Assembly (NCBI GenBank): GCA_036253035.1
Contig: GCA_036253035.1_4123.1
Direction: 5' to 3' (one strand)
Length of the DNA: 64,000 nucleotides
Origin: a phage
This document shows positions 680-57,496 of the stretch, piece by piece. The stretch's first letter is position 1; each line of letters starts with the position of its first letter. Below the pieces are notes generated by a model. That model was not told the DNA's origin, did no database searches, and saw only the letters and a list, made by a program, of their open reading frames with translations. A program made the translations under genes and the position numbers.

Positions 680-1156
680 TTAATAGTTATTCATTTCATC
701 TTTGATTTGTTCTTCAATTTCATTCAACATATCTTTAACGTACTGTGGACATTCAACATCAGTAAACTTATACCACGTAGGCTTCATCTGGAGCTTCTCA
801 ATCAAACGGTCACGAGACATTTTAATCTCTGACTCCGTTGGTACGTAGTCATTACAAAACTCAGCAGGGAAGCCGCTAATGTCGTTTACTTCAGTGTTTT
901 GAATCTTCATACCACGACGCAGACATTCGTTGACAATATCAATATGACGCTTCTGTAAGTACAGTAACTTGTCGTAGAAAAATGTTACATGACCTGAACC
1001 TAACAGATAAGTACTGTTAATTTTGAAATCACGTACACGCTTACGTGCTTGAACGTGTTTTTGTACAGCACCAAATACACGTGGGAGTTCACGATATTCA
1101 GCCATCAGATGTTGGTCAGCAAGTTCTTTAACGTGTACTAAGTTAATGCGTGTCAT
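680..1156 (-). CDS. denV: endonuclease V, pyrimidine-dimer DNA glycosylase
   Basis: 158 aa; [32 protein letters not shown] closely matches T4 DenV as I recall it; RBS AGAGGA. Confidence 0.85.
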
Positions 1157-19755: not shown

Positions 19756-20721
19756 TTAGAAATCTTCGTATTCGTACCCTTTTGCAAGTACTAGCTTCTT
19801 AAGCTTTTGCATAGCTTCACTGTACTTTCGATGTATTGATGAACGGGATTTAACATATTTTCCATTATCATCAACAAAACCATTATCAGCAATCTCACGA
19901 AGCGTTTCAGGTTCATATTCACCTAGACCATGAACACGATGGATAATCTCACGTTCTTTAGTACTCAATTCGTTAGTCAGTTCATTGATAGCATAACGTA
20001 AAGGTGCACGAATACTATCAACATTGAGGTTAAAATCAGAAGCAGGTGAATGAATAATGTCACCTAGTGTACCATCGGTAACACCGTCTAATGGTGCATC
20101 CAGAGAAGTGTATTCGCTTTGAAATAACAAACAGTTATTAACATGCTGAATCTCAATCCCAGTACCCTCTGAGATTATTTCAGGAGTTGGGCGAACACCA
20201 TGTTTACGCATATATTCCTGGCAGAATCTTTTTACTTTGATCTTATGAACACTCATATAACGTGGGAAGTGTACCATATAGTTAGCGTCAGAACTTTCGT
20301 TATAAACTGTCATGTAAATACTAGAAGAAGCATAGGTAATGAACTTAACATTCTTATTAAGATCAAAGGTTTTTAGTGCTCTCATGAACCCCTCAACACC
20401 ATATGAAATCTTATCTTCAAATGGGATATAACAAGTACATTTACTTGCTACATCAATAATAAGTCCATAATTGTAACGAACTAACAGTTCAGTGTTTTTC
20501 TTTACATTGATACCAGCTTGAATATCACGAATTAGATCTTCATTGGAAACATTTGGTGGTCGCTTAAGTGTAATATTATATTTGAAACTGCTTTGTACTT
20601 TACCTTCATTTTCATCTTTATCTTCAACGAAATCTAAGGCTTCTAGTGTGTTGACTTCTTCATTAGCAAAACATTCATCCAGAACTTCTTCGGCAATTGT
20701 ATTTAAATCAAGCTTTTTCAC
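19756..20721 (-). CDS. RNA polymerase sigma factor, sigma-70 family
   Basis: 321 aa, GTG start with AGGAGA RBS; region 2 EGFMRALKTFDLNKNVKFITYA and region 4-like TLREIAD..SRSSIHRKYSEAMQKLKK. Confidence 0.7.
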   Translation of the reverse strand: MKKLDLNTIAEEVLDECFANEEVNTLEALDFVEDKDENEGKVQSSFKYNITLKRPPNVSNEDLIRDIQAGINVKKNTELLVRYNYGLIIDVASKCTCYIPFEDKISYGVEGFMRALKTFDLNKNVKFITYASSSIYMTVYNESSDANYMVHFPRYMSVHKIKVKRFCQEYMRKHGVRPTPEIISEGTGIEIQHVNNCLLFQSEYTSLDAPLDGVTDGTLGDIIHSPASDFNLNVDSIRAPLRYAINELTNELSTKEREIIHRVHGLGEYEPETLREIADNGFVDDNGKYVKSRSSIHRKYSEAMQKLKKLVLAKGYEYEDF

Positions 20722-31991: not shown

Positions 31992-32081
<90 letters not shown>

Positions 32082-32093
32082 AGAAGTAAGATA

Positions 32094-32194
<101 letters not shown>

Positions 32195-32249
32195 GCCAAG
32201 TGTCGGCATAGGTGCAGCACTACAAAGTACTTCAAGCTGTTTGGCAGTC

Positions 32250-32336
<87 letters not shown>

Positions 32337-32338
32337 TA

Positions 32339-32464
<126 letters not shown>

Positions 32465-32483
32465 GCATACTCGAAGTACCTCT

Positions 32484-32589
<106 letters not shown>

Positions 32590-32633
32590 AATTGCTTTAT
32601 AAGCTACTGAATCGGGAATCACAACCTCCCCAT

Positions 32634-33151
<518 letters not shown>

Positions 33152-33172
33152 TTATACCTCTCATTGTTTATG

Positions 33173-33244
<72 letters not shown>

Positions 33245-33248
33245 TAAT

Positions 33249-33856
<608 letters not shown>

Positions 33857-33907
33857 ATAAACCTCACTATACGTAACTTACACCATATACGTCTGATTGT
33901 GGAATTC

Positions 33908-33932
33908 ATTATATCAGTACTGAACTATTTAG

Positions 33933-33936
<4 letters not shown>
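33908..33936 (-). promoter_or_regulatory. sigma-70-type promoter (TTGACT-17-TATAAT)
   Basis: plus attata(33908-33913)..agtcaa(33931-33936). Confidence 0.6.
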
Positions 33937-34345
<409 letters not shown>

Positions 34346-34355
34346 GCTTTTTTTT

Positions 34356-34517
<162 letters not shown>

Positions 34518-34521
<4 letters not shown>

Positions 34522-34678
34522 AATCGTACCAGTAGTTCAATTAAGTACATTTCATATGCTGGATCGTTGATAAGTTTATCATACAGATGTGGCTCTGAAA
34601 TGAATTCCCAATGATACTTTAGCCATCTACCGATACCCGAATATCTAAAATTAATGTCATTCATCCATTCTTCATGTG

Positions 34679-34682
<4 letters not shown>
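34518..34682 (-). CDS. MTHEEW-family mini-protein (54 aa), copy 2
   Basis: MTHEEWMNDINFRYSGIGRW..; ATGA overlap with copy 1. Confidence 0.5.
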
Positions 34683-34843
<161 letters not shown>

Positions 34844-34866
34844 GGTTTTTAACCTTTAATTAAAAT

Positions 34867-34943
34867 TGGCCGAGGTAGAGGGACTTGAACCCCCAACCTA
34901 GAGATTAGAATTCTCTTGCACTATCCAATTGTGCTATACCCCG
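34867..34943 (-). tRNA. tRNA-Arg (anticodon UCU), CCA encoded
   Basis: acceptor CGGGGTA/TACCTCG, T-arm GGGGG-TTCAAGT-CCCTC, anticodon loop AUUCUAA. Confidence 0.8.
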
Positions 34944-34947
34944 TATT

Positions 34948-35063
<116 letters not shown>

Positions 35064-35096
35064 ATGTTATGTCCCATTATATAATGAATTAATGAT

Positions 35097-35315
35097 TTAT
35101 GCAAGTGCTTTAGATACACCGACACCAATAATTCCAGTGATATCGATATGGATATTGGCAAGTTGATTACTATCATATGGGTTTGTTTCTGTAATAACCA
35201 ATGTTGTATCATTGACTAAAACCACAGTACCTTTTACACGATAACCATGTAGTAGTACTTGAACCTCATCTTCAGGTTTTAATGATTGAATAACTTCAAA
35301 TAAAGTTGTTTCCAT
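35097..35315 (-). CDS. hypothetical protein
   Basis: track ORF 35097..35423; ATG 35315 with AAGGA RBS avoids overlap. Confidence 0.45.
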   Translation of the reverse strand: METTLFEVIQSLKPEDEVQVLLHGYRVKGTVVLVNDTTLVITETNPYDSNQLANIHIDITGIIGVGVSKALA

Positions 35316-35331
35316 TTTTTGTATTCCTTGT

Positions 35332-35514
35332 TTAGTTTTGATTATTTGACTTTCTAAATGCCAGTTCGCATATAAACCAGGGTTTTCTGGTATCCAAAAC
35401 ATATGACCTGAAAAGATTTTCATCTCTTAATATATCATAATGTACCTGACGAATGCCATTCCCAAAGCAGTCATGTTCTTTATGCTGTTTGGACATCCAT
35501 TCTTCGTGTGTCAT
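35332..35514 (-). CDS. MTHEEW-family mini-protein
   Basis: MTHEEWMSKQHKEHDCFGNGIRQVHYDIL.. Confidence 0.5.
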   Translation of the reverse strand: MTHEEWMSKQHKEHDCFGNGIRQVHYDILRDENLFRSYVLDTRKPWFICELAFRKSNNQN

Positions 35515-35515
35515 T

Positions 35516-35851
<336 letters not shown>

Positions 35852-42742: not shown

Positions 42743-43186
42743 TTACTCCTTAAAGTAGATATCACGAATTTGTTTAATCATCTCTAACTCTTGAAGTCCT
42801 ATCATACCAAAGTCTTCTTGTATTGTCAACTGCTGAAAGTACATTTCTTCTAAATTATTGTACGGGATCTCAACAAGATTCAAAGGCTCACTTTCCACAC
42901 GATAAATTGTATCTTGTACATCATGTTTTTCGATATGAATACTAAATGTATCTTTTTGAATTCTAAATTTATAAAATGTTTGATTTGTTGTAAACAAACC
43001 AACTTTAGGATGGAATCCCATTTGAATACACAAACAATCTTCATCCTTATATTTCAAGTATATAGCTTTTGACGTTGCTAGTACTTTAGATTTTGGGAAA
43101 TAAAAATCACCCATCAGCTTCTGACGTTTCCAGTCCTCATATACAACTGGATGCTTAACCTTCTTCAATTGGTGCAGTACTGTCAT
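42743..43186 (-). CDS. EExxFQxS-motif family protein
   Basis: 147 aa; NLEEMYFQQLTIQEDFG. Confidence 0.6.
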   Translation of the reverse strand: MTVLHQLKKVKHPVVYEDWKRQKLMGDFYFPKSKVLATSKAIYLKYKDEDCLCIQMGFHPKVGLFTTNQTFYKFRIQKDTFSIHIEKHDVQDTIYRVESEPLNLVEIPYNNLEEMYFQQLTIQEDFGMIGLQELEMIKQIRDIYFKE

Positions 43187-43566
43187 AGTTTTTTCCAGTC
43201 CAATGAATCGAAATCGATTTGTTCAGGATTATCAACAGCGACAACTCGTGCATTATGAAGAGTTTCAAAGTAGCCGTTCCACGGTGTACGTACTGGGATT
43301 TTTTCATCTCCAATTTTTACAAAGAAAGAGAATTCACATGACATTGGATCAAACCATTCTTTATGTTTGGCTTCATCGATTATTGTAGCACGTTCGTTAC
43401 TATATGCATCATCGAGTTTCTTAAAGAATACCCAATGCTCTTTCAAAGACTGTAATGCTACAACTGCCTCATCCTTTGATTCCCATTGAACATCCAATGT
43501 ATTGGTAACTGAATCTTCAGTTTCAGTGTCCCCTGTAGTGTAATGTACTTCAATGCAGTATTTCAT
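43183..43566 (-). CDS. hypothetical protein
   Basis: minus ORF 127 aa. Confidence 0.55.
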   Translation of the reverse strand: MKYCIEVHYTTGDTETEDSVTNTLDVQWESKDEAVVALQSLKEHWVFFKKLDDAYSNERATIIDEAKHKEWFDPMSCEFSFFVKIGDEKIPVRTPWNGYFETLHNARVVAVDNPEQIDFDSLDWKKL

Positions 43567-44018
43567 TATTCATCACCTTTTAGTAATTTACAAATTTCAA
43601 TCATATGATAATAACATGTATTCCAAAATTGTCCATTAGTACTTCCAACATCATGCACAGTACTTAGCTGGAACACATATTCATCGTTAAACATATTTTT
43701 CATATCTTCAACGTAACATTCTTTTTTAGAATCATAGTTATATTCTATACTCATTTCTCCATCTGGGTCAAGTGATATTGATGATATGTCTTGAACGAAG
43801 GCGGGGTTTGTTGGAGAAAAGTATAACGTAAGTTGATAGCAGTCTGGGTCAGTTTCATAACAATACACAATATTATAATTCCCACCCGTGGTTGGGCTGT
43901 ATTTAAATTCTGTTTTATTAGTATTTGACATGCTATACCCAAGGTTCTTTATCTCTTGGAGATGTAATAATATTTTATGTAAAGTTCCTAAAACATGAAT
44001 CAAATTATCAATTTTCAT
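43566..44018 (-). CDS. EExxFQxS-motif family protein
   Basis: 150 aa; DEYVFQLSTVHDVG. Confidence 0.6.
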   Translation of the reverse strand: MKIDNLIHVLGTLHKILLHLQEIKNLGYSMSNTNKTEFKYSPTTGGNYNIVYCYETDPDCYQLTLYFSPTNPAFVQDISSISLDPDGEMSIEYNYDSKKECYVEDMKNMFNDEYVFQLSTVHDVGSTNGQFWNTCYYHMIEICKLLKGDE

Positions 44019-44557
44019 TTACGTTCCTTTAAAAAGTTCAGTTTAAAAGTTTTACCAAATTCCATTGTAGCTTTACCCAGATTGTTAATATTTTCTTTCA
44101 ACATTTCTTGCATCTTCCTAATACTTTCATTCCAGGCTTCTTCTTCTTTGCGGAGGACTGGTCGCAATCGTTCCTGAATATCGTTAAAACGTGTATTGAG
44201 TTCAACCAATGATTCATATGTGAAATCTTTCATATCGATGATAGTACTACGTTGAAAGAATTCTTCTTCAGACAAATTACTTAAAATGATTTTATCACGA
44301 CCAATAGATAATGTCAATTCATCATCTTTATTTTTTTTAATTACAATACTAACAGGTGTTTTTAATGTAATGCAAATATCATGATTATTAAATGTTTCAG
44401 TTTGGTTTGACATTCTGAATTGAAGTTTCCCAGATAAAGCATGTACTGGTGATGGTTTCTTTTTACCAGTAATAACATCTTCCCATGAATCGAGAATATT
44501 ATTAATAATTTTAACATAAGGAATTGGCATATATGCACCTATGAAAAATCCACGCAA
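44015..44557 (-). CDS. EExxFQxS-motif family protein (with extended C-terminus)
   Basis: 180 aa; SEEEFFQRSTIIDM. Confidence 0.6.
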   Translation of the reverse strand: MRGFFIGAYMPIPYVKIINNILDSWEDVITGKKKPSPVHALSGKLQFRMSNQTETFNNHDICITLKTPVSIVIKKNKDDELTLSIGRDKIILSNLSEEEFFQRSTIIDMKDFTYESLVELNTRFNDIQERLRPVLRKEEEAWNESIRKMQEMLKENINNLGKATMEFGKTFKLNFLKERK

Positions 44558-44572
44558 TGCGTGGATTTGTAA

Positions 44573-45103
44573 TTATTCAAGTATAGTAATTTCAATTAAA
44601 CGAATTTCGATAAACTCGTTTTCAGTTTCCCATGACGTGCCAAATTTCTTTTCAAGTTCAGATTTCACATCACTTTTAAATTTTCCCATAGTATTAGGAA
44701 TAATTTGTTTGGTTAATTTGTCGTAACCACAATAAAACATAGGTTTCTCCCTTCGAGATATTAGCTGAACAAAATCTTTTGGATATGCAGGTATGTTATG
44801 CATCACTTCATGAATACACTCAGTACTTGAATCTTGTACTTTGTACATTACATTAAGTTTACCTCTGAAATTTGCGGTCATATCAACAATAGTTCCTTTA
44901 CCCGATTTAAGTAAAGTTCCATTCTTTGAATGAGAGCAATAAAATACCTCATCACCAATATTAGGATAATACAAATTAAATTCTAATTCAGATTTTACAG
45001 CCAGCCGTTTGAAACTTTCTGTACGTTTTATATAAGTTTGGTATTTGTTTATGTTCAAAAGAATATCTCTCTTAGTAAATGTGATATAACTGGCATAGTC
45101 CAT
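44573..45103 (-). CDS. hypothetical protein
   Basis: minus ORF 176 aa; 5' end overlaps methyltransferase gene. Confidence 0.5.
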   Translation of the reverse strand: MDYASYITFTKRDILLNINKYQTYIKRTESFKRLAVKSELEFNLYYPNIGDEVFYCSHSKNGTLLKSGKGTIVDMTANFRGKLNVMYKVQDSSTECIHEVMHNIPAYPKDFVQLISRREKPMFYCGYDKLTKQIIPNTMGKFKSDVKSELEKKFGTSWETENEFIEIRLIEITILE

Positions 45104-45915
45104 CCATTCCCAAGCATTTTGTATGCTTGTGTCTTACTAGACACTTTAAAGAAATCTTCAGGAACACCCTGTAATTTACAACATTCTACTACACTTAAGT
45201 GTCTATAGTCAATATTTCTTTTGCCATTCTCTAATAGATATTGACGACTGATCACTGGGTCACGAAACACCAATTGTCGTCTGGATTTATTAAAGTACTG
45301 GTTACAATCACCACCTTTAAAATAGTTAGCATCTATACAGTACGAAGCGGTTCTGTCAGTGTACCAACCATCTTCAATAATATCTTGAAGTTTAGGTGCA
45401 TTGGATAATGCAGGTGGTATAAAAAGCTTATCAGTACTGTACCAGTAATATCTCTGCCTGAAGTGAGGCGTATAATGCTGGGAGTTTATCAGTACTGGCG
45501 TGATTCCTAAAATACTATTAATGTATTCTTTGAAATCTTCCTTCATTTTAACATTTTCAAACAGAAATTTCAAGTTAGGATTGAGACTTTTGATATGATC
45601 AAAAATTTCAACCATTACTAAAAATAACTGCCCACGTATATCATTTAAACCACCCTGTTTACCTGCAACTGACCAGGCTTGGCATGGGAAACCACCCATT
45701 AATAAATCTATTTTGTCCCACTCAATATCCCATTCTCTCCACTTAGTTACATCACCCAATTGGATAATATCAGGAAAGTTAGATTGAGATTCAGCTATTG
45801 CGTACTTATCAATTTCGGATGAATAATATTTTTCAACTGGGATACCCGCATCTTGCAATGCCATATATCCCACACTCATTCCATTAAAAAGAGAAAGTAC
45901 TCGGATAGGTTTCAT
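45055..45915 (-). CDS. DNA (cytosine-5)-methyltransferase
   Basis: 286 aa; motif IV GGFPCQAWS, ENV, C-terminal QAYKMLGNGWTMPV. Confidence 0.75.
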   Translation of the reverse strand: MKPIRVLSLFNGMSVGYMALQDAGIPVEKYYSSEIDKYAIAESQSNFPDIIQLGDVTKWREWDIEWDKIDLLMGGFPCQAWSVAGKQGGLNDIRGQLFLVMVEIFDHIKSLNPNLKFLFENVKMKEDFKEYINSILGITPVLINSQHYTPHFRQRYYWYSTDKLFIPPALSNAPKLQDIIEDGWYTDRTASYCIDANYFKGGDCNQYFNKSRRQLVFRDPVISRQYLLENGKRNIDYRHLSVVECCKLQGVPEDFFKVSSKTQAYKMLGNGWTMPVISHLLREIFF

Positions 45916-45967
45916 ATAAAATCCTTTTTATATTGTTAAGGTACTATAATATATTATAGCATCTTAT

Positions 45968-46258
45968 TTAGAAATCTTCCAAACTTTTTTCATCACACCA
46001 TCGTGATGTACAGATGATTGCAGATGCCAGAATTGAAGCACTTGCACGTCCTCCACCGAGTAAATACTGGCTAATTACGCCAATCATATTGAACACTTTA
46101 TCATACTCGGTTAGTTGTTCAAAACCTTTCTTCCAATGCTGATATTCTTCTTCTGTGACATTAAACTCACCATCAAGTTCCTTTAAAATCTTTTTAAGCA
46201 CAGCACTATGTTCACTCATCATCATCTCCATATCGTTCGTCATAAAAATCATCATCAC
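45968..46258 (-). CDS. hypothetical protein
   Basis: minus ORF 96 aa. Confidence 0.5.
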   Translation of the reverse strand: MMMIFMTNDMEMMMSEHSAVLKKILKELDGEFNVTEEEYQHWKKGFEQLTEYDKVFNMIGVISQYLLGGGRASASILASAIICTSRWCDEKSLEDF

Positions 46259-46297
46259 GATCTAATGGTTCTTTTGGCTTTTCAGACATATATTTCC

Positions 46298-46558
46298 TCA
46301 CATGGTAAAGGTATTATCACCATCCATATCTTCATCAGTTGCTTCAGCTAATGTCTTGATTGTAAGTAATCCACGCTTCACGTACATCATGAAGACCTTT
46401 TCATAATTACCAAACATAATCTCAGGTGACATGTAATTCTCTGTTACAATGACGATTGGACGGCCCTGTGAAAGCATACGAAACATAGTACGATATTTGT
46501 CAAATGTGCGAAATTCATCCATGTTCATCATGTGGCGTTTACGAACTACTTTAGTCAT
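46298..46558 (-). CDS. hypothetical protein
   Basis: minus ORF 86 aa. Confidence 0.5.
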   Translation of the reverse strand: MTKVVRKRHMMNMDEFRTFDKYRTMFRMLSQGRPIVIVTENYMSPEIMFGNYEKVFMMYVKRGLLTIKTLAEATDEDMDGDNTFTM

Positions 46559-46572
46559 CTTATTACCTTTAG

Positions 46573-47013
46573 TTAATTGAACTCTACTTCTGGATAATGA
46601 TTATAGAACATCTCACGAACTGCGTCAAGATGTTCTTGAAATTGTTTTATATCTTCTAATGATGGTGCATCAATAACAGTACTAAGTTGAAACAACGATT
46701 CTTCTGTGTTATATAGTGACATATCAAATGAATTATTGTTGTCATCAGTTATGATATTATCACAAATTTCGTAAGTGTCAATACAAACATCATCAAGTGT
46801 TGTATTATCATATACAGTGTATACGAATACAAAAATAAAAGAAGAATGTTCTTTACCATAACGGGGTGGGTCATATGTCACATAGCATTTGTGGTCAAAT
46901 GTATCGAGTTCCATAGACACCACCCCAGCTTCACGATATTCATTAGTTTCACTGGTAAGATCCGGTATTGATGTTATCGAAAGTAAGTGGAGAAATTTAC
47001 TTGGATTTAGCAT
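46573..47013 (-). CDS. EExxFQxS-motif family protein
   Basis: 146 aa; TEESLFQLSTVIDAPSL. Confidence 0.6.
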   Translation of the reverse strand: MLNPSKFLHLLSITSIPDLTSETNEYREAGVVSMELDTFDHKCYVTYDPPRYGKEHSSFIFVFVYTVYDNTTLDDVCIDTYEICDNIITDDNNNSFDMSLYNTEESLFQLSTVIDAPSLEDIKQFQEHLDAVREMFYNHYPEVEFN

Positions 47014-47468
47014 TTCACCACCATTGGATTTTGCGACTGTATATTAAAAAGGGATAATACAAAAGTACTCAATTTTTCGAAACAATCTACTAATACATTT
47101 AACTCATCATAACTAACACCAATTTCACGAATAAGCGATTGTTGAAAGAATCCTTCTTCGGTTAACGTTAAACTACTAACCTCAGTTATGTTATAATAAC
47201 TTTGGGATGTTGTGGTTGATATTAGTTGTATTGCAATCGTATCTGATGTTGTGTTGTACAGATATAAATATTTTGTTTTTCTTTCCAATGGATCTATACA
47301 TGAAAGATCGATCATGTCATAGGTTTTTCCAATAAAAATATTACAATCATCTGACAATTCACAACAAATGCGTATATGTTCTTTCGGGTCATGAACACGT
47401 TGTGTGTCAAATTCACATGACATTGCAATTTCAAAATGATTTTTTATTTCGTCAACATTCATCTGCAC
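47007..47468 (-). CDS. EExxFQxS-motif family protein
   Basis: 153 aa; TEEGFFQQSLIREIG. Confidence 0.6.
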   Translation of the reverse strand: MQMNVDEIKNHFEIAMSCEFDTQRVHDPKEHIRICCELSDDCNIFIGKTYDMIDLSCIDPLERKTKYLYLYNTTSDTIAIQLISTTTSQSYYNITEVSSLTLTEEGFFQQSLIREIGVSYDELNVLVDCFEKLSTFVLSLFNIQSQNPMVVKC

Positions 47469-47836
47469 CCACCATTAATTCTTATATTTGTATAGTTTAA
47501 TGCTTTTTTAATAATACCAATTTCTGTAATTCCTATTACATTTTTCTCAATCAATGACAATTGGAATAGTTCCTCTTCGGAAATATCAATACTGTGGATT
47601 CTTGTACAATAATCGTTGAAGTCATATACATATCGTATTGTATAGTCGTTTATAGAAACTGATACAATTGCAATTCCATCATGGATGTAAGTTAGTTCAT
47701 TTGAGTATCTATTAAAAATTAACCTATCTGGTGAACCTATTGGTAGTTGAAATGTATTTCTAGTATCTTGAACAATAACAAAATCATCATCTATATTTCT
47801 ACTCAGAACACCCAAAATATCATATATAGTAGTCAT
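47459..47836 (-). CDS. EExxFQxS-motif family protein
   Basis: 125 aa; SEEELFQLSLIEKN. Confidence 0.6.
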   Translation of the reverse strand: MTTIYDILGVLSRNIDDDFVIVQDTRNTFQLPIGSPDRLIFNRYSNELTYIHDGIAIVSVSINDYTIRYVYDFNDYCTRIHSIDISEEELFQLSLIEKNVIGITEIGIIKKALNYTNIRINGGCR

Positions 47837-47837
47837 G

Positions 47838-48242
47838 TTATTCTTTACCTTCAGCAGTTCTGATAATTTTCATAACTTCTCTGGATAGTGCGTATATTTT
47901 TTTATAGTACTCAAATGTAACTGAACCAAAATCATTAATAGTACTAGCCATGAAGAACGATTCTTCTGTATATAGTTCATTTGACAAAGCAACCAGTTCT
48001 TGGTGAAATTTTGCGTCCTTCCAATAACGAAATTCAAAAACAAATTGTCCGTCATGACCGACTCTACAACATTCAGAACGATCACTGTCTACACAGCTAA
48101 ACACAATATCCCTTTCAGAGTCGTACCAGATATTTCCAATATTTGTTTCAATAACAGCATAATCAATTTTTTTAGAATTTGGAATTAAACCTTTTTTCAC
48201 CAGCACTAAACTGGTATTATCAATATCTAGTAAACTTACCAT
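47838..48242 (-). CDS. EExxFQxS-motif family protein
   Basis: 134 aa; TEESFFMASTINDFG. Confidence 0.6.
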   Translation of the reverse strand: MVSLLDIDNTSLVLVKKGLIPNSKKIDYAVIETNIGNIWYDSERDIVFSCVDSDRSECCRVGHDGQFVFEFRYWKDAKFHQELVALSNELYTEESFFMASTINDFGSVTFEYYKKIYALSREVMKIIRTAEGKE

Positions 48243-56359: not shown

Positions 56360-57496
56360 TTACTTGTTAGCTTTTTCGGCAATTTCACGAAGAGTGTCTT
56401 CCAGTTCATAGGAAAGTTGTGCAATTTCCTGTTTAGCACGTTCACGTTCCAATTTGCCTTTTTTCTCTTCTTCAATAACTGCTTCAATACTGTCAATCAT
56501 CGTTTTATGTACATTACGCAAGGTTTTAATATCCACAATACCACGGTTGTTTGCCTTTGCTGCGTCCAACATATTTGCTGCAACCATTTTAGAGTTAGTT
56601 TCCAAAAGACGGTTTGTCTCATTATCAATTAGATTGCCTAGTTCATTATCCTTACGTTGACGCTCGGAAATTAACTGTTCAGCCAATTGAGACTTCCATG
56701 CTGGAATAACAACAGATTTTAAATCTTCAAACTTAGAAACAGTGTTCAAGTTTACTTTTTTCATACTCATCAAACGTGGACCACTTAGCTCGCACATCAT
56801 GATAAGACGACGAATCTTATCTTCTTGTTTAGAAAGTGCTTCACAAATCATCTTTTGCTCTTGAATAGCAAAAGAGTCTACATTTTTGTCTGCTTGCATT
56901 TCTAATAATAATGCATCTTGTGTTTTAGTTACTTCTTCTAAACCAACTAATGTATCACGTAATTCAAACAAATATTCTTTGTTTTCATTATATGCTTTAT
57001 CAAGCCATTCACATTCTCCGTGCTGGCGATTAATACCAGTTTGAAGAGTTTTCATAATTTCGTCAATTTGCTCTTTACTGTTTTTGTACTGATCACCTAC
57101 TTTCTGTTGAGCATTAACAAAGAATTTCTTAATACGACCAACAATTGATTTATCTTCTTGAAGACTGTCAATATCAACTGCACGAGTCAACGTAAGAATT
57201 GTGGTGATTGATTTACCAAACTCGGTATTGTCATCCGTTACATTAACTTTAGACATAATTTCATCAGCCAAACGCCCAACAGCAGCACCAGCAGTTGTAC
57301 CAACAGTATTGATGTTTTGAACTGTTAGAGACATAGTATTTCCCTTAACATCTTTCAGTACTGGTAGTGATTTTGTAGTTTGGTTAAAAATATCACTTGC
57401 ATCAATTGTATGACCTTTAGACGCAGTTTTAGTAGTGCGTTTTGCTGATTTAGCTGCGGTGGATGCTTTTTTAGGATTGATTTCTTTCTCGGACAT
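56360..57496 (-). CDS. TelA/KlaA-like (toxic-anion-resistance family) protein, tentative
   Basis: 378 aa, long helical acidic protein; family call from size and composition only. Confidence 0.4.
   Translation of the reverse strand: MSEKEINPKKASTAAKSAKRTTKTASKGHTIDASDIFNQTTKSLPVLKDVKGNTMSLTVQNINTVGTTAGAAVGRLADEIMSKVNVTDDNTEFGKSITTILTLTRAVDIDSLQEDKSIVGRIKKFFVNAQQKVGDQYKNSKEQIDEIMKTLQTGINRQHGECEWLDKAYNENKEYLFELRDTLVGLEEVTKTQDALLLEMQADKNVDSFAIQEQKMICEALSKQEDKIRRLIMMCELSGPRLMSMKKVNLNTVSKFEDLKSVVIPAWKSQLAEQLISERQRKDNELGNLIDNETNRLLETNSKMVAANMLDAAKANNRGIVDIKTLRNVHKTMIDSIEAVIEEEKKGKLERERAKQEIAQLSYELEDTLREIAEKANK

What the first reader, a model, noticed from the sequence alone, without database searches (positions are those of the whole stretch)
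45055..45915. Orphan C5-cytosine methyltransferase
Clear PCQ and ENV motifs with no adjacent restriction endonuclease; a likely self-protective or regulatory methylase. Its target could relate to the enriched AGTACT palindrome, though this is speculation.
Basis: partly seen in the sequence, partly recalled or inferred. Interest (0 to 1): 0.45.

Follow-up and report, generated by a model that had tools for sequence, protein, structure and literature searches.

The report
Orphan phage cytosine-5 DNA methyltransferase
This is a real, intact cytosine-5 DNA methyltransferase gene with no restriction enzyme partner, already annotated in this family of giant E. coli phages; it most likely shields phage DNA from host restriction, and it almost certainly does not act on the abundant AGTACT palindrome.

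Summary
The minus-strand ORF 45055-45915 encodes a 286-aa C5 DNA methyltransferase with all canonical motifs (Pfam PF00145, E 7.5e-38) and a confident predicted fold (pLDDT 94.6).

The window is an Asteriusvirus jumbo phage: 100% identical to phage JP4, 99% to 121Q. The gene is already annotated there and mentioned in published papers, so it is not new.

"Orphan" also holds. I found no nuclease domain in the ten nearest ORFs, in the other 122 window ORFs, or next to homologues in 160 other loci.

The AGTACT link is not supported. AGTACT is truly over-represented (162 observed, 21.5 expected) and its sites are positionally conserved. But in Erwinia phage Kaldavass (orthologue 76.5% identical, AGTACT 10-fold enriched), published Nanopore native-versus-amplified data report modification only at GATC, CCWGG (5mC) and TGCAT. 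Bisulfite data for phage RaK2 report a methylated CpG site.

The likeliest target is therefore CCWGG, the motif methylated by E. coli Dcm, with a CpG-type site as second choice. Neither is proven for this phage.

The parts
45055..45915 (-). Coding sequence of the 286-aa C5 DNA methyltransferase, stop codon included
   Evidence: ORF list. Pfam PF00145 E 7.5e-38. AF2 model pLDDT 94.6, pTM 0.91. 100% identical protein in 13 phage records, annotated as gp91 'DNA-cytosine-methyltransferase' in 121Q.
45868..45888 (-). Motif I (F10-N-G-M-S-V-G16), the SAM-binding loop
   Evidence: Read from the translation. F10 and G12 are invariant in 58 homologues.
45679..45687 (-). Motif IV P77-C78-Q79, with the catalytic cysteine
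   Evidence: The reverse complement of ttggcatgg is CCA TGC CAA. P77 and C78 are invariant. In phage JNE01 an intein sits exactly in front of this Cys.
45550..45558 (-). Motif VI E120-N121-V122
   Evidence: The reverse complement of aacattttc is GAA AAT GTT. All three residues are invariant in 58 homologues.
45442..45459 (-). Motif VIII R153-Q-R155-Y-Y-W158
   Evidence: Translation. R153, R155 and W158 are invariant.
45205..45441 (-). Short target-recognition domain (residues ~159-237), including the family-invariant core SYCIDANYFKGG..QYF.KSRRQLVF
45100..45204 (-). Motifs IX and X (R238..E244..QGVP; L268-G-N-G-W272)
   Evidence: Translation. R238, L240, E244, G269, N270 and G271 are invariant.
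45953..45982 (-). Sigma-70-like promoter candidate: TTGGAA, 18-nt spacer, TG-TATAAT, ending 38 nt upstream of the ATG
   Evidence: Consensus scan, 10 of 12 matches with an extended -10. The number of such matches in the region is no higher than in shuffles, so only the position argues for it.
45922..45926 (-). Ribosome-binding site AAGGA, 6 nt before the ATG
   Evidence: Read from the sequence.

Best explanation
The ORF encodes an active, stand-alone (orphan) S-adenosylmethionine-dependent DNA cytosine-5 methyltransferase of a large, mainly phage-borne family (PHROG 116). Its compact fold is closest to the DNMT3 catalytic domain.

Proposed mechanism:
- It is transcribed within the long leftward block of small early-type genes, probably from a host-type promoter.
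- It methylates newly replicated phage DNA at a short motif, so packaged DNA enters the next host already protected from restriction enzymes that recognise that motif.
- The most likely motif is CCWGG, the motif methylated by E. coli Dcm. That would protect against EcoRII-type enzymes whether or not the previous host had Dcm.
- A CpG-containing site is the second candidate.

What is shown: gene integrity, catalytic motifs, fold, absence of a nuclease partner, and purifying selection. What is inferred: activity, timing, target motif and the anti-restriction role.
For: Family, motifs and fold.

Selection on the gene:
- The protein is identical in 13 isolates.
- The gene is 92.1% identical to fEgEco12 at nucleotide level, against 83.9% for the surrounding 36.6 kb.
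- Orthologues are syntenic in RaK2, GAP32, CBB and Kaldavass.
- The JNE01 allele carries a Hint + LAGLIDADG intein exactly at the catalytic Cys, a site typical of functionally constrained enzymes.

Orphan status.

5mC in virions of relatives:
- Kaldavass and Hallingskeid carry 5mC at CC[AT]GG, confirmed with a Dcm-specific Tombo model.
- The motif count matches the MTase count in both phages: 2 and 2 in Hallingskeid, 3 and 3 in Kaldavass.
- Kaldavass CDS_0246, listed in the paper's Table 3, is the orthologue (PMC11780129).
- RaK2 DNA has a methylated CpG site and resists methylation-sensitive enzymes (PMC3622015).

Site statistics: CCWGG is not avoided (o/e 0.92 in the window, 1.15 in pooled relatives). 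Comparable sites are purged: GGWCC 0.41/0.23, CCSGG 0.06, GCGC 0.
Against: - No experiment exists on this phage or this protein.
- The authors of PMC11780129 note that host methylases could have written the CCWGG marks. The hosts of these phages commonly have Dcm, which would also explain why CCWGG is tolerated.
- The two experimental reports on relatives disagree (CCWGG versus a CpG site). The RaK2 data are 'not shown' and the motif is lost from the held text.
- I found no excess of C>T changes at CpG in polarised comparisons (14/657 vs 145/6074, p 0.79). There are too few CCWGG sites to run the same test on them.
- Viral contigs from other environments that carry homologues do avoid CCWGG (o/e 0.51).
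Confidence: 0.6

Rival explanations
1. The enzyme methylates the cytosine of the hyper-abundant palindrome AGTACT (or CAGTACTG), either protecting it from ScaI-type restriction or marking phage DNA as self.
For: - AGTACT is the most over-represented hexamer (162 vs 21.5) in a genome that has otherwise purged 18 GC-containing 6-bp palindromes, so some protection of it would make sense.
- Enrichment and MTase orthologue co-occur in Asteriusvirus, RaK2, GAP32, CBB and Kaldavass. PA5oct lacks the enrichment, and I saw no orthologue among the listed hits, but its absence from PA5oct was not checked.
Against: - Kaldavass has about 136 AGTACT per 41 kb, yet Nanopore native-vs-WGA analysis found only GATC, CCWGG and TGCAT modified.
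- RaK2 bisulfite sequencing reported a CpG site, and AGTACT has no CpG.
- phi92 has a homologue with the same invariant TRD core and zero AGTACT.
- Sixty-seven other contigs with homologues have AGTACT depleted (o/e 0.34).
- There is no deamination or very-short-patch-repair signature in the neighbouring words (AGTATT/AATACT o/e 0.94).
- The co-occurrence within one clade is explained by shared descent.
Confidence: 0.03
2. The target is a CpG-containing motif, or CpG in general, as in the DNMT3 enzymes and M.MpeI, and as reported for RaK2. On this reading the CCWGG marks seen in the Erwinia phages come from host Dcm.
For: - The HMMER alignment to DNMT3C runs through the TRD.
- RaK2 virion DNA has a methylated CpG.
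- CpG is the most depleted dinucleotide (0.77) and CA/TG the most enriched (1.33/1.15) in the window.
Against: - No CpG motif was reported for Kaldavass or Hallingskeid, whose orthologues are closer (76-78%) than RaK2's (64%).
- RaK2 gp194 has a different catalytic loop: PCT plus an 8-residue insertion.
- CpG-containing palindromes are strongly avoided here (GCGC 0, CCGG 0.19, CTCGAG 0, GTCGAC 0). That would be unnecessary if they were methylated.
- CpG shows no excess of C>T changes.
- Fold similarity does not establish specificity.
Confidence: 0.2
3. The methylation is mainly regulatory rather than protective. It could time phage transcription, replication or packaging, or the enzyme could act on host DNA.
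For: Orphan MTases often have regulatory roles (general knowledge). The gene lies among early-type genes near a phage sigma factor. Homologues elsewhere sit among replication genes and other orphan MTases.
Against: No motif-promoter association was found or tested. The family is spread across unrelated phages of many hosts, which fits a generic anti-restriction function better than phage-specific regulation.
Confidence: 0.12
4. The protein is inactive, or it is an RNA (Dnmt2-like tRNA) methyltransferase.
Against: All catalytic residues are intact and invariant. Sequence similarity to Dnmt2 is far weaker (E 4e-10, N-terminal half only) than to DNMT3, HhaI or HaeIII. 5mC is present in the DNA of relatives.
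Confidence: 0.04

Closest known systems
Orthologous annotated genes in RaK2-like jumbo phages: 121Q gp91, phAPEC6 'C-5-cytosine MTase', Sharanji 'HaeIII methylase', CBB_399, GAP32_390, Kaldavass CDS0246, RaK2 gp194
   Same: Same gene at the same syntenic position. Protein identity is 100-99% within Asteriusvirus, 75-78% in Mimasvirus and Hallingskeid, and 64% in RaK2. All are orphans.
   Different: Nothing of substance within Asteriusvirus. RaK2 gp194 has PCT instead of PCQ and an 8-residue insertion in the catalytic loop. The JNE01 and ph0011 alleles carry an intein.
Catalytic domain of eukaryotic DNMT3A/3B/3C
   Different: No PWWP or ADD domains and no DNMT3L partner. It is viral and prokaryotic. 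The DNMT3 residues that read CpG are not recognisably conserved in the low-confidence TRD alignment. The target may be CCWGG rather than CpG.
E. coli Dcm / M.EcoRII (CCWGG, 5mC)
   Same: Possibly the same target motif, and the same chemistry on the same kind of DNA. 5mC at CCWGG was seen in virions of phages carrying the orthologue.
   Different: Only remote sequence similarity (E about 1e-3 to the Shigella Dcm structure; NCBIfam Dcm subfamily PRK10458 scores 21 bits against a cut-off of 710). The protein is 286 aa against 472, and no adjacent vsr gene was detected.
Classical Type II modification methylases M.HhaI / M.HaeIII and the CpG-specific M.MpeI
   Different: Those enzymes have larger TRDs, and M.HhaI and M.HaeIII pair with a restriction enzyme. 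The 'HaeIII' and 'HpaII' labels on this gene in some records are automatic names, not evidence of GGCC or CCGG specificity. Both sites are in fact avoided in this genome.

Membership tests
DNA (cytosine-5) methyltransferase, Pfam PF00145 / TIGR00675 | Profile match above the curated threshold | tested here: met
   PF00145 scores 131.2 bits (cut-off 22). TIGR00675 scores 119.2 bits (cut-off 100.65).
DNA (cytosine-5) methyltransferase, Pfam PF00145 / TIGR00675 | Motif IV Pro-Cys with the catalytic cysteine, motif VI Glu-Asn-Val, motif VIII Arg-x-Arg, motif I FxGxG, motif X GN(G/A), in the canonical non-permuted order | tested here: met
   F10/G12, P77-C78-Q79, E120-N121-V122, R153/R155 and G269-N270-G271 are all invariant in 58 homologues.
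DNA (cytosine-5) methyltransferase, Pfam PF00145 / TIGR00675 | Two-domain fold: Rossmann-like catalytic domain plus a TRD between motifs VIII and IX | tested here: met
DNA (cytosine-5) methyltransferase, Pfam PF00145 / TIGR00675 | Transfers methyl from SAM to C5 of cytosine in DNA | not testable with these tools
   Indirect only: 5mC was found in virion DNA of relatives carrying the orthologue.
Type II restriction-modification system | A cognate restriction endonuclease encoded next to the methyltransferase | tested here: not met
   No nuclease domain in the 10 nearest ORFs, in the 122 other window ORFs, or in 125 flanking ORFs at 160 homologue loci. Caveat: restriction enzymes are diverse and can escape Pfam.
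Dcm-Vsr module (E. coli type) | Membership of the Dcm subfamily and an overlapping vsr mismatch-endonuclease gene | tested here: not met
   NCBIfam PRK10458 scores 21 bits against a cut-off of 710. The downstream overlapping ORF 44573-45103 has no Vsr or other significant domain. AGTACT neighbour words show no very-short-patch-repair signature.
Dcm-like target specificity (CCWGG) | 5mC at the inner C of CCWGG written by this protein | tested here: inconclusive
   5mC at CCWGG is present in Kaldavass and Hallingskeid virions, but host Dcm was not excluded. CCWGG is tolerated (o/e 0.92) while GGWCC and CCSGG are purged.
Eukaryotic DNMT3 family | Catalytic domain with a short TRD, plus N-terminal PWWP/ADD chromatin-reading domains and CpG specificity | tested here: not met
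   The catalytic-domain fold matches best of all PDB entries. However, the protein is the catalytic domain only (286 aa) and its CpG specificity is unproven. It resembles DNMT3 but is not a member.

The most novel reading that the evidence does not exclude
This phage family (PHROG 116) could be the closest prokaryotic-virus relative of the DNMT3 catalytic domain: a minimal 286-aa enzyme whose short TRD and catalytic loop have been retuned between lineages. The target would be CCWGG in Asteriusvirus and Mimasvirus and a CpG site in RaK2, where the catalytic loop is remodelled (PCT plus an 8-residue insertion). That would make it a natural model for how short-TRD C5 MTases switch specificity, and a possible small tool enzyme. 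The still more novel AGTACT-writer reading is nearly excluded (about 3%).
Probability: 0.2. Interest if true: 0.45.

Novelty: already known. Interest (0 to 1): 0.15.

Why it matters
On its own it matters little. Orphan C5 methyltransferases are common in phages, and this gene is already annotated and discussed for 121Q, phAPEC6, Sharanji, CBB, GAP32 and RaK2.

This check does three useful things:

- **It separates the MTase from the AGTACT excess.** The AGTACT/CAGTACTG excess and the total absence of GCGC therefore need another explanation.
- **It proposes a testable target.** CCWGG is the first choice and a CpG site the second, drawn from two published methylation data sets on relatives.
- **It corrects misleading database labels.** 'HaeIII' and 'HpaII methylase' are automatic names. 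GGCC and CCGG are avoided in this genome.

For phage therapy with Asteriusvirus phages, knowing which restriction systems the phage is pre-protected against bears on host range.

Tried and rejected
1. **CpG deamination signature.** I polarised substitutions in two three-way comparisons.
   - Window / fEgEco12 / JNE01: C>T at CpG 0.134, elsewhere 0.115.
   - Window / 121Q / fEgEco12: 14/657 vs 145/6074, odds ratio 0.89, p 0.79.
   - There is no signal, so this neither supports nor excludes CpG methylation.
2. **Repair signature around AGTACT.** A very-short-patch-type process would deplete the deamination product. AGTATT/AATACT has o/e 0.94, so there is no signature.
3. **Specificity from a partner restriction enzyme.** I scanned 125 ORFs flanking homologues in 160 viral and genomic loci. 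None was a restriction enzyme; the neighbours are other orphan MTases and phage replication or packaging genes.
4. **Specificity from site-avoidance patterns.**
   - ACG-containing tetramers are not depleted.
   - CACGTG and GTGCAC are the only 4-G/C hexamer palindromes retained.
   - GACGTC and CTGCAG are purged, so no consistent 4-bp rule emerged.
5. **Co-occurrence of the MTase and AGTACT enrichment.** It holds within the RaK2-like clade. phi92 and the IMG/VR carriers have a homologue but no enrichment. PA5oct also lacks the enrichment, but whether it carries the MTase was not checked. This is confounded by descent and cannot show a link.
6. **Literature searches.** No paper in the held library mentions AGTACT or CAGTACTG in jumbo phages, characterises the ICP1 or phi92 homologues, or gives the RaK2 motif, which is lost from the held text.

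Full report
**What is there.** The window is part of an Asteriusvirus jumbo myovirus.
- A 3-kb stretch around the finding is 100% identical to Escherichia phage JP4 and 99% identical to 121Q, PBECO4, phAPEC6 and Sharanji.
- At exactly the reported coordinates, on the minus strand, lies a 286-codon ORF with an ATG start, an AAGGA ribosome-binding site and a well-placed sigma-70-like promoter candidate.
- It matches the C5 DNA methyltransferase families far above threshold: PF00145 at E 7.5e-38, TIGR00675 at 2.9e-34 and PHROG 116 at 5e-60.
Motifs I, VIII, IX and X are also present, and their key residues are invariant in an alignment of 58 homologues.
- AlphaFold2 gives a confident model: pLDDT 94.6, pTM 0.91.

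**It is already known.**
- The same protein, 100% identical in 13 records, is annotated as 'DNA-cytosine-methyltransferase' (121Q gp91) or similar.
- The Sharanji, CBB and RaK2 papers mention the orthologues.
- Labels such as 'HaeIII' or 'HpaII methylase' are automatic. GGCC and CCGG are in fact avoided in this genome.

**Orphan status.**
- The ten nearest ORFs have no significant Pfam domain and belong to unknown-function PHROGs.
- The other 122 ORFs of the window hit only 16 Pfam families: a sigma factor, TelA, a clamp loader, a DenV-like glycosylase and others. None is a restriction enzyme.
- Orthologues in RaK2, GAP32, CBB, fEgEco12 and Kaldavass sit in the same array of small hypothetical genes.
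- Among 125 ORFs flanking homologues at 160 viral and bacterial loci, no restriction-enzyme family appears. The neighbours are other orphan MTases and phage replication or packaging genes.

The family is a phage-borne orphan family.

**Evidence that the gene is functional.**
- It is more conserved than its surroundings: 92.1% nucleotide identity to fEgEco12, against 83.9% over 36.6 kb.
- In phage JNE01, and apparently in ph0011, the gene carries a Hint + LAGLIDADG intein inserted exactly before the catalytic cysteine: GGFP|C...VVHN|CQAWS. Inteins typically occupy sites that cannot be lost.

**Closest structures.**
- By sequence, the best PDB matches are the DNMT3A/B/C catalytic domains (E about 1e-23, full length), ahead of HhaI and HaeIII at about 1e-18.
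- All top 50 Foldseek hits are DNMT3 chains, with TM about 0.80.

The enzyme therefore looks like a bare DNMT3-type catalytic domain with a short TRD. It is not a member of the eukaryotic family, because it has no PWWP or ADD domains.

**The AGTACT idea: the enrichment is real.**
- AGTACT occurs 162 times against 21.5 expected, and is the most over-represented hexamer in the window.
- It extends to CAGTACTG: 37 copies against 0.6 expected.
- It is evenly spread along the window and found in all three reading frames and between genes.
- It survives a synonymous-codon shuffle (52.9 +/- 5.2 expected, z about 21).
- Individual sites are conserved far above background: 73% vs 41% against fEgEco12, and 62% vs 26% against JNE01.
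- It is shared by RaK2, GAP32, CBB and Kaldavass (o/e 7-10), together with a complete absence of GCGC.

**The AGTACT idea: the enzyme does not write on it.**
- Kaldavass CDS0246 is the orthologue (76.5% identical) and is one of the three MTases listed in Table 3 of PMC11780129.
- A 41-kb sample of that genome holds 136 AGTACT, 54 CCWGG and 39 TGCAT sites.
- The native-versus-amplified Nanopore comparison nevertheless found modification only at GATC (6mA), CC[AT]GG (5mC, confirmed with a Dcm model) and TGCAT.
- RaK2 bisulfite sequencing reported a methylated CpG. AGTACT has none, and it is frequent enough (99 copies in a 40.9-kb sample) that an amplicon of several hundred bases would usually include a copy.
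- phi92 has a homologue with the same invariant TRD core and no AGTACT at all in 35 kb.
- Sixty-seven other viral contigs with homologues have AGTACT depleted.
- The deamination product AGTATT is not depleted.

I put the AGTACT-target reading at about 3%.

**What the target probably is.** Two published data sets on relatives disagree.
- The closer orthologues (76-78% identity, same catalytic loop) come from phages with 5mC at CCWGG. In both, the number of motifs equals the number of predicted MTases: Hallingskeid 2 and 2, Kaldavass 3 and 3.
- From the CBB paper's count of adenine and cytosine enzymes in the same genus, I infer that this is the only C5-type enzyme in that genus.
- In the window, CCWGG is tolerated (o/e 0.92) while GGWCC (0.41), CCSGG (0.06), CCGG (0.19) and GCGC (0) are purged.
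- Against this, the authors warn that host methylases may be responsible, host Dcm would equally explain the tolerance, and the enzyme is not a Dcm relative.
- The RaK2 report and the DNMT3/M.MpeI-like fold favour a CpG-type site. But RaK2 gp194 is only 64% identical with a remodelled catalytic loop. CpG-containing palindromes are strongly avoided here, and CpG shows no excess of C>T changes.

My estimates are CCWGG about 0.5, a CpG-type site about 0.2, and AGTACT about 0.03. The remainder covers some other motif, or an enzyme that does not methylate DNA.

**Mechanism.** Steps marked as inferred are not shown by any result here.
- The gene is expressed from a host-type promoter within the early-type gene block (inferred).
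- The enzyme methylates replicating phage DNA at its motif. This is inferred from the intact catalytic machinery and the 5mC found in relatives.
- Packaged DNA is therefore resistant on entry to restriction enzymes that recognise that motif, whatever the methylation capacity of the previous host (inferred).
- This complements the genome's other, visible strategy of purging most GC-containing palindromes. Eighteen 6-bp palindromes expected at least 3 times are absent.

**Verdict.** The finding is real but ordinary and already annotated. The speculative AGTACT link is contradicted by published methylome data on a close relative. The AGTACT/CAGTACTG excess and the absolute lack of GCGC are clade-wide and unexplained, I found no mention of them in the held literature, and they deserve their own follow-up.

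Noticed in passing
whole window (e.g. 45294, 45433, 45491, 45896 inside the MTase gene); also L002, L003, L004, L088, L170: AGTACT is the most over-represented hexamer: 162 vs 21.5 expected, extending to CAGTACTG at 37 vs 0.6. It is evenly spread, occurs in all three reading frames and between genes, survives a synonymous-codon shuffle (z about 21), and its sites are conserved (73% vs 41% background). RaK2, GAP32, CBB and Kaldavass share it (o/e 7-10). PA5oct, phi92 and 67 other contigs carrying the MTase family do not. It is not modified according to the Kaldavass Nanopore data. Its function is unknown; a binding site for a dimeric phage protein is one guess.
   Followed up: partly
whole window; L002-L004, L088, L170: GCGC is completely absent (0 vs 47.5 expected here, and 0 in every RaK2-like sample). 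Eighteen GC-containing 6-bp palindromes expected at least 3 times have no copy. The only retained 4-G/C palindromes are CACGTG (7) and GTGCAC (10). CCWGG and GCWGC are tolerated. PA5oct shows none of this. The total lack of GCGC across genera with different hosts suggests a phage-intrinsic cause, for example a phage nuclease that cuts host GCGC. I did not test this.
   Followed up: partly
L007:19999-21888 (-) (phage JNE01); probably also ph0011: The orthologous MTase gene is 629 codons long because a Hint + LAGLIDADG intein is inserted exactly before the catalytic Cys of the PCQ motif: GGFP|CFPEGT...VVHN|CQAWS. Pfam supports this with Hint_2 at 5.6e-8 and LAGLIDADG_3 at 3.2e-7.
   Followed up: yes
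42743-48242, minus strand: A tandem array of small paralogous ORFs (125-180 aa) flanks the MTase. Each has a C-terminal motif such as EE.FFQ.S.I or FQLSTV. All are 'hypothetical' in 121Q, and each falls in a separate unknown-function PHROG.
   Followed up: no
32002-35829, minus strand (tRNA-Ser at 33346-33437): A cluster of seven tRNA genes includes a tRNA-Ser with the unusual anticodon ACT, which reads AGT. AGT is the most used Ser codon (381 of 1206) and ACT the most used Thr codon (500 of 1081). Together they spell AGT-ACT, the frame-0 form of the abundant palindrome (62 of 162 sites).
   Followed up: partly
L002:19999-20892 (-) (RaK2 gp194): The RaK2 orthologue has PCT instead of PCQ and an 8-residue insertion in the catalytic loop (GGSPCTDVSFAGKQEGLVKPDENGDGGTRSGLF). 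This may explain why RaK2 is reported to be methylated at a CpG site while the Erwinia relatives show CCWGG.
   Followed up: no
whole window vs L170: GATC is depleted in the window (112 vs 194 expected; 185 after codon shuffle) but not in Kaldavass (o/e 0.95), although both lineages encode Dam-like adenine MTases. TGCAT, the third modified motif in Kaldavass, is depleted there (0.38-0.51) but enriched in the window (1.5).
   Followed up: no
window 26040-64000 aligned to L088 and L006: Polarised substitutions show C>T (0.024 per site) about twice as frequent as T>C (0.012) in all sequence contexts. This is a general AT-ward mutation or selection pressure, not specific to CpG.
   Followed up: no
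683-1156 (-), 19756-20721 (-), 56360-57496 (-): Other recognisable genes in the window are a DenV-like pyrimidine-dimer DNA glycosylase (Pyr_excise, 8.6e-15), a phage sigma-70-family factor (regions 2, 3 and 4) and a TelA-like protein (2.2e-37). About 85% of the ORFs have no Pfam match.
   Followed up: no
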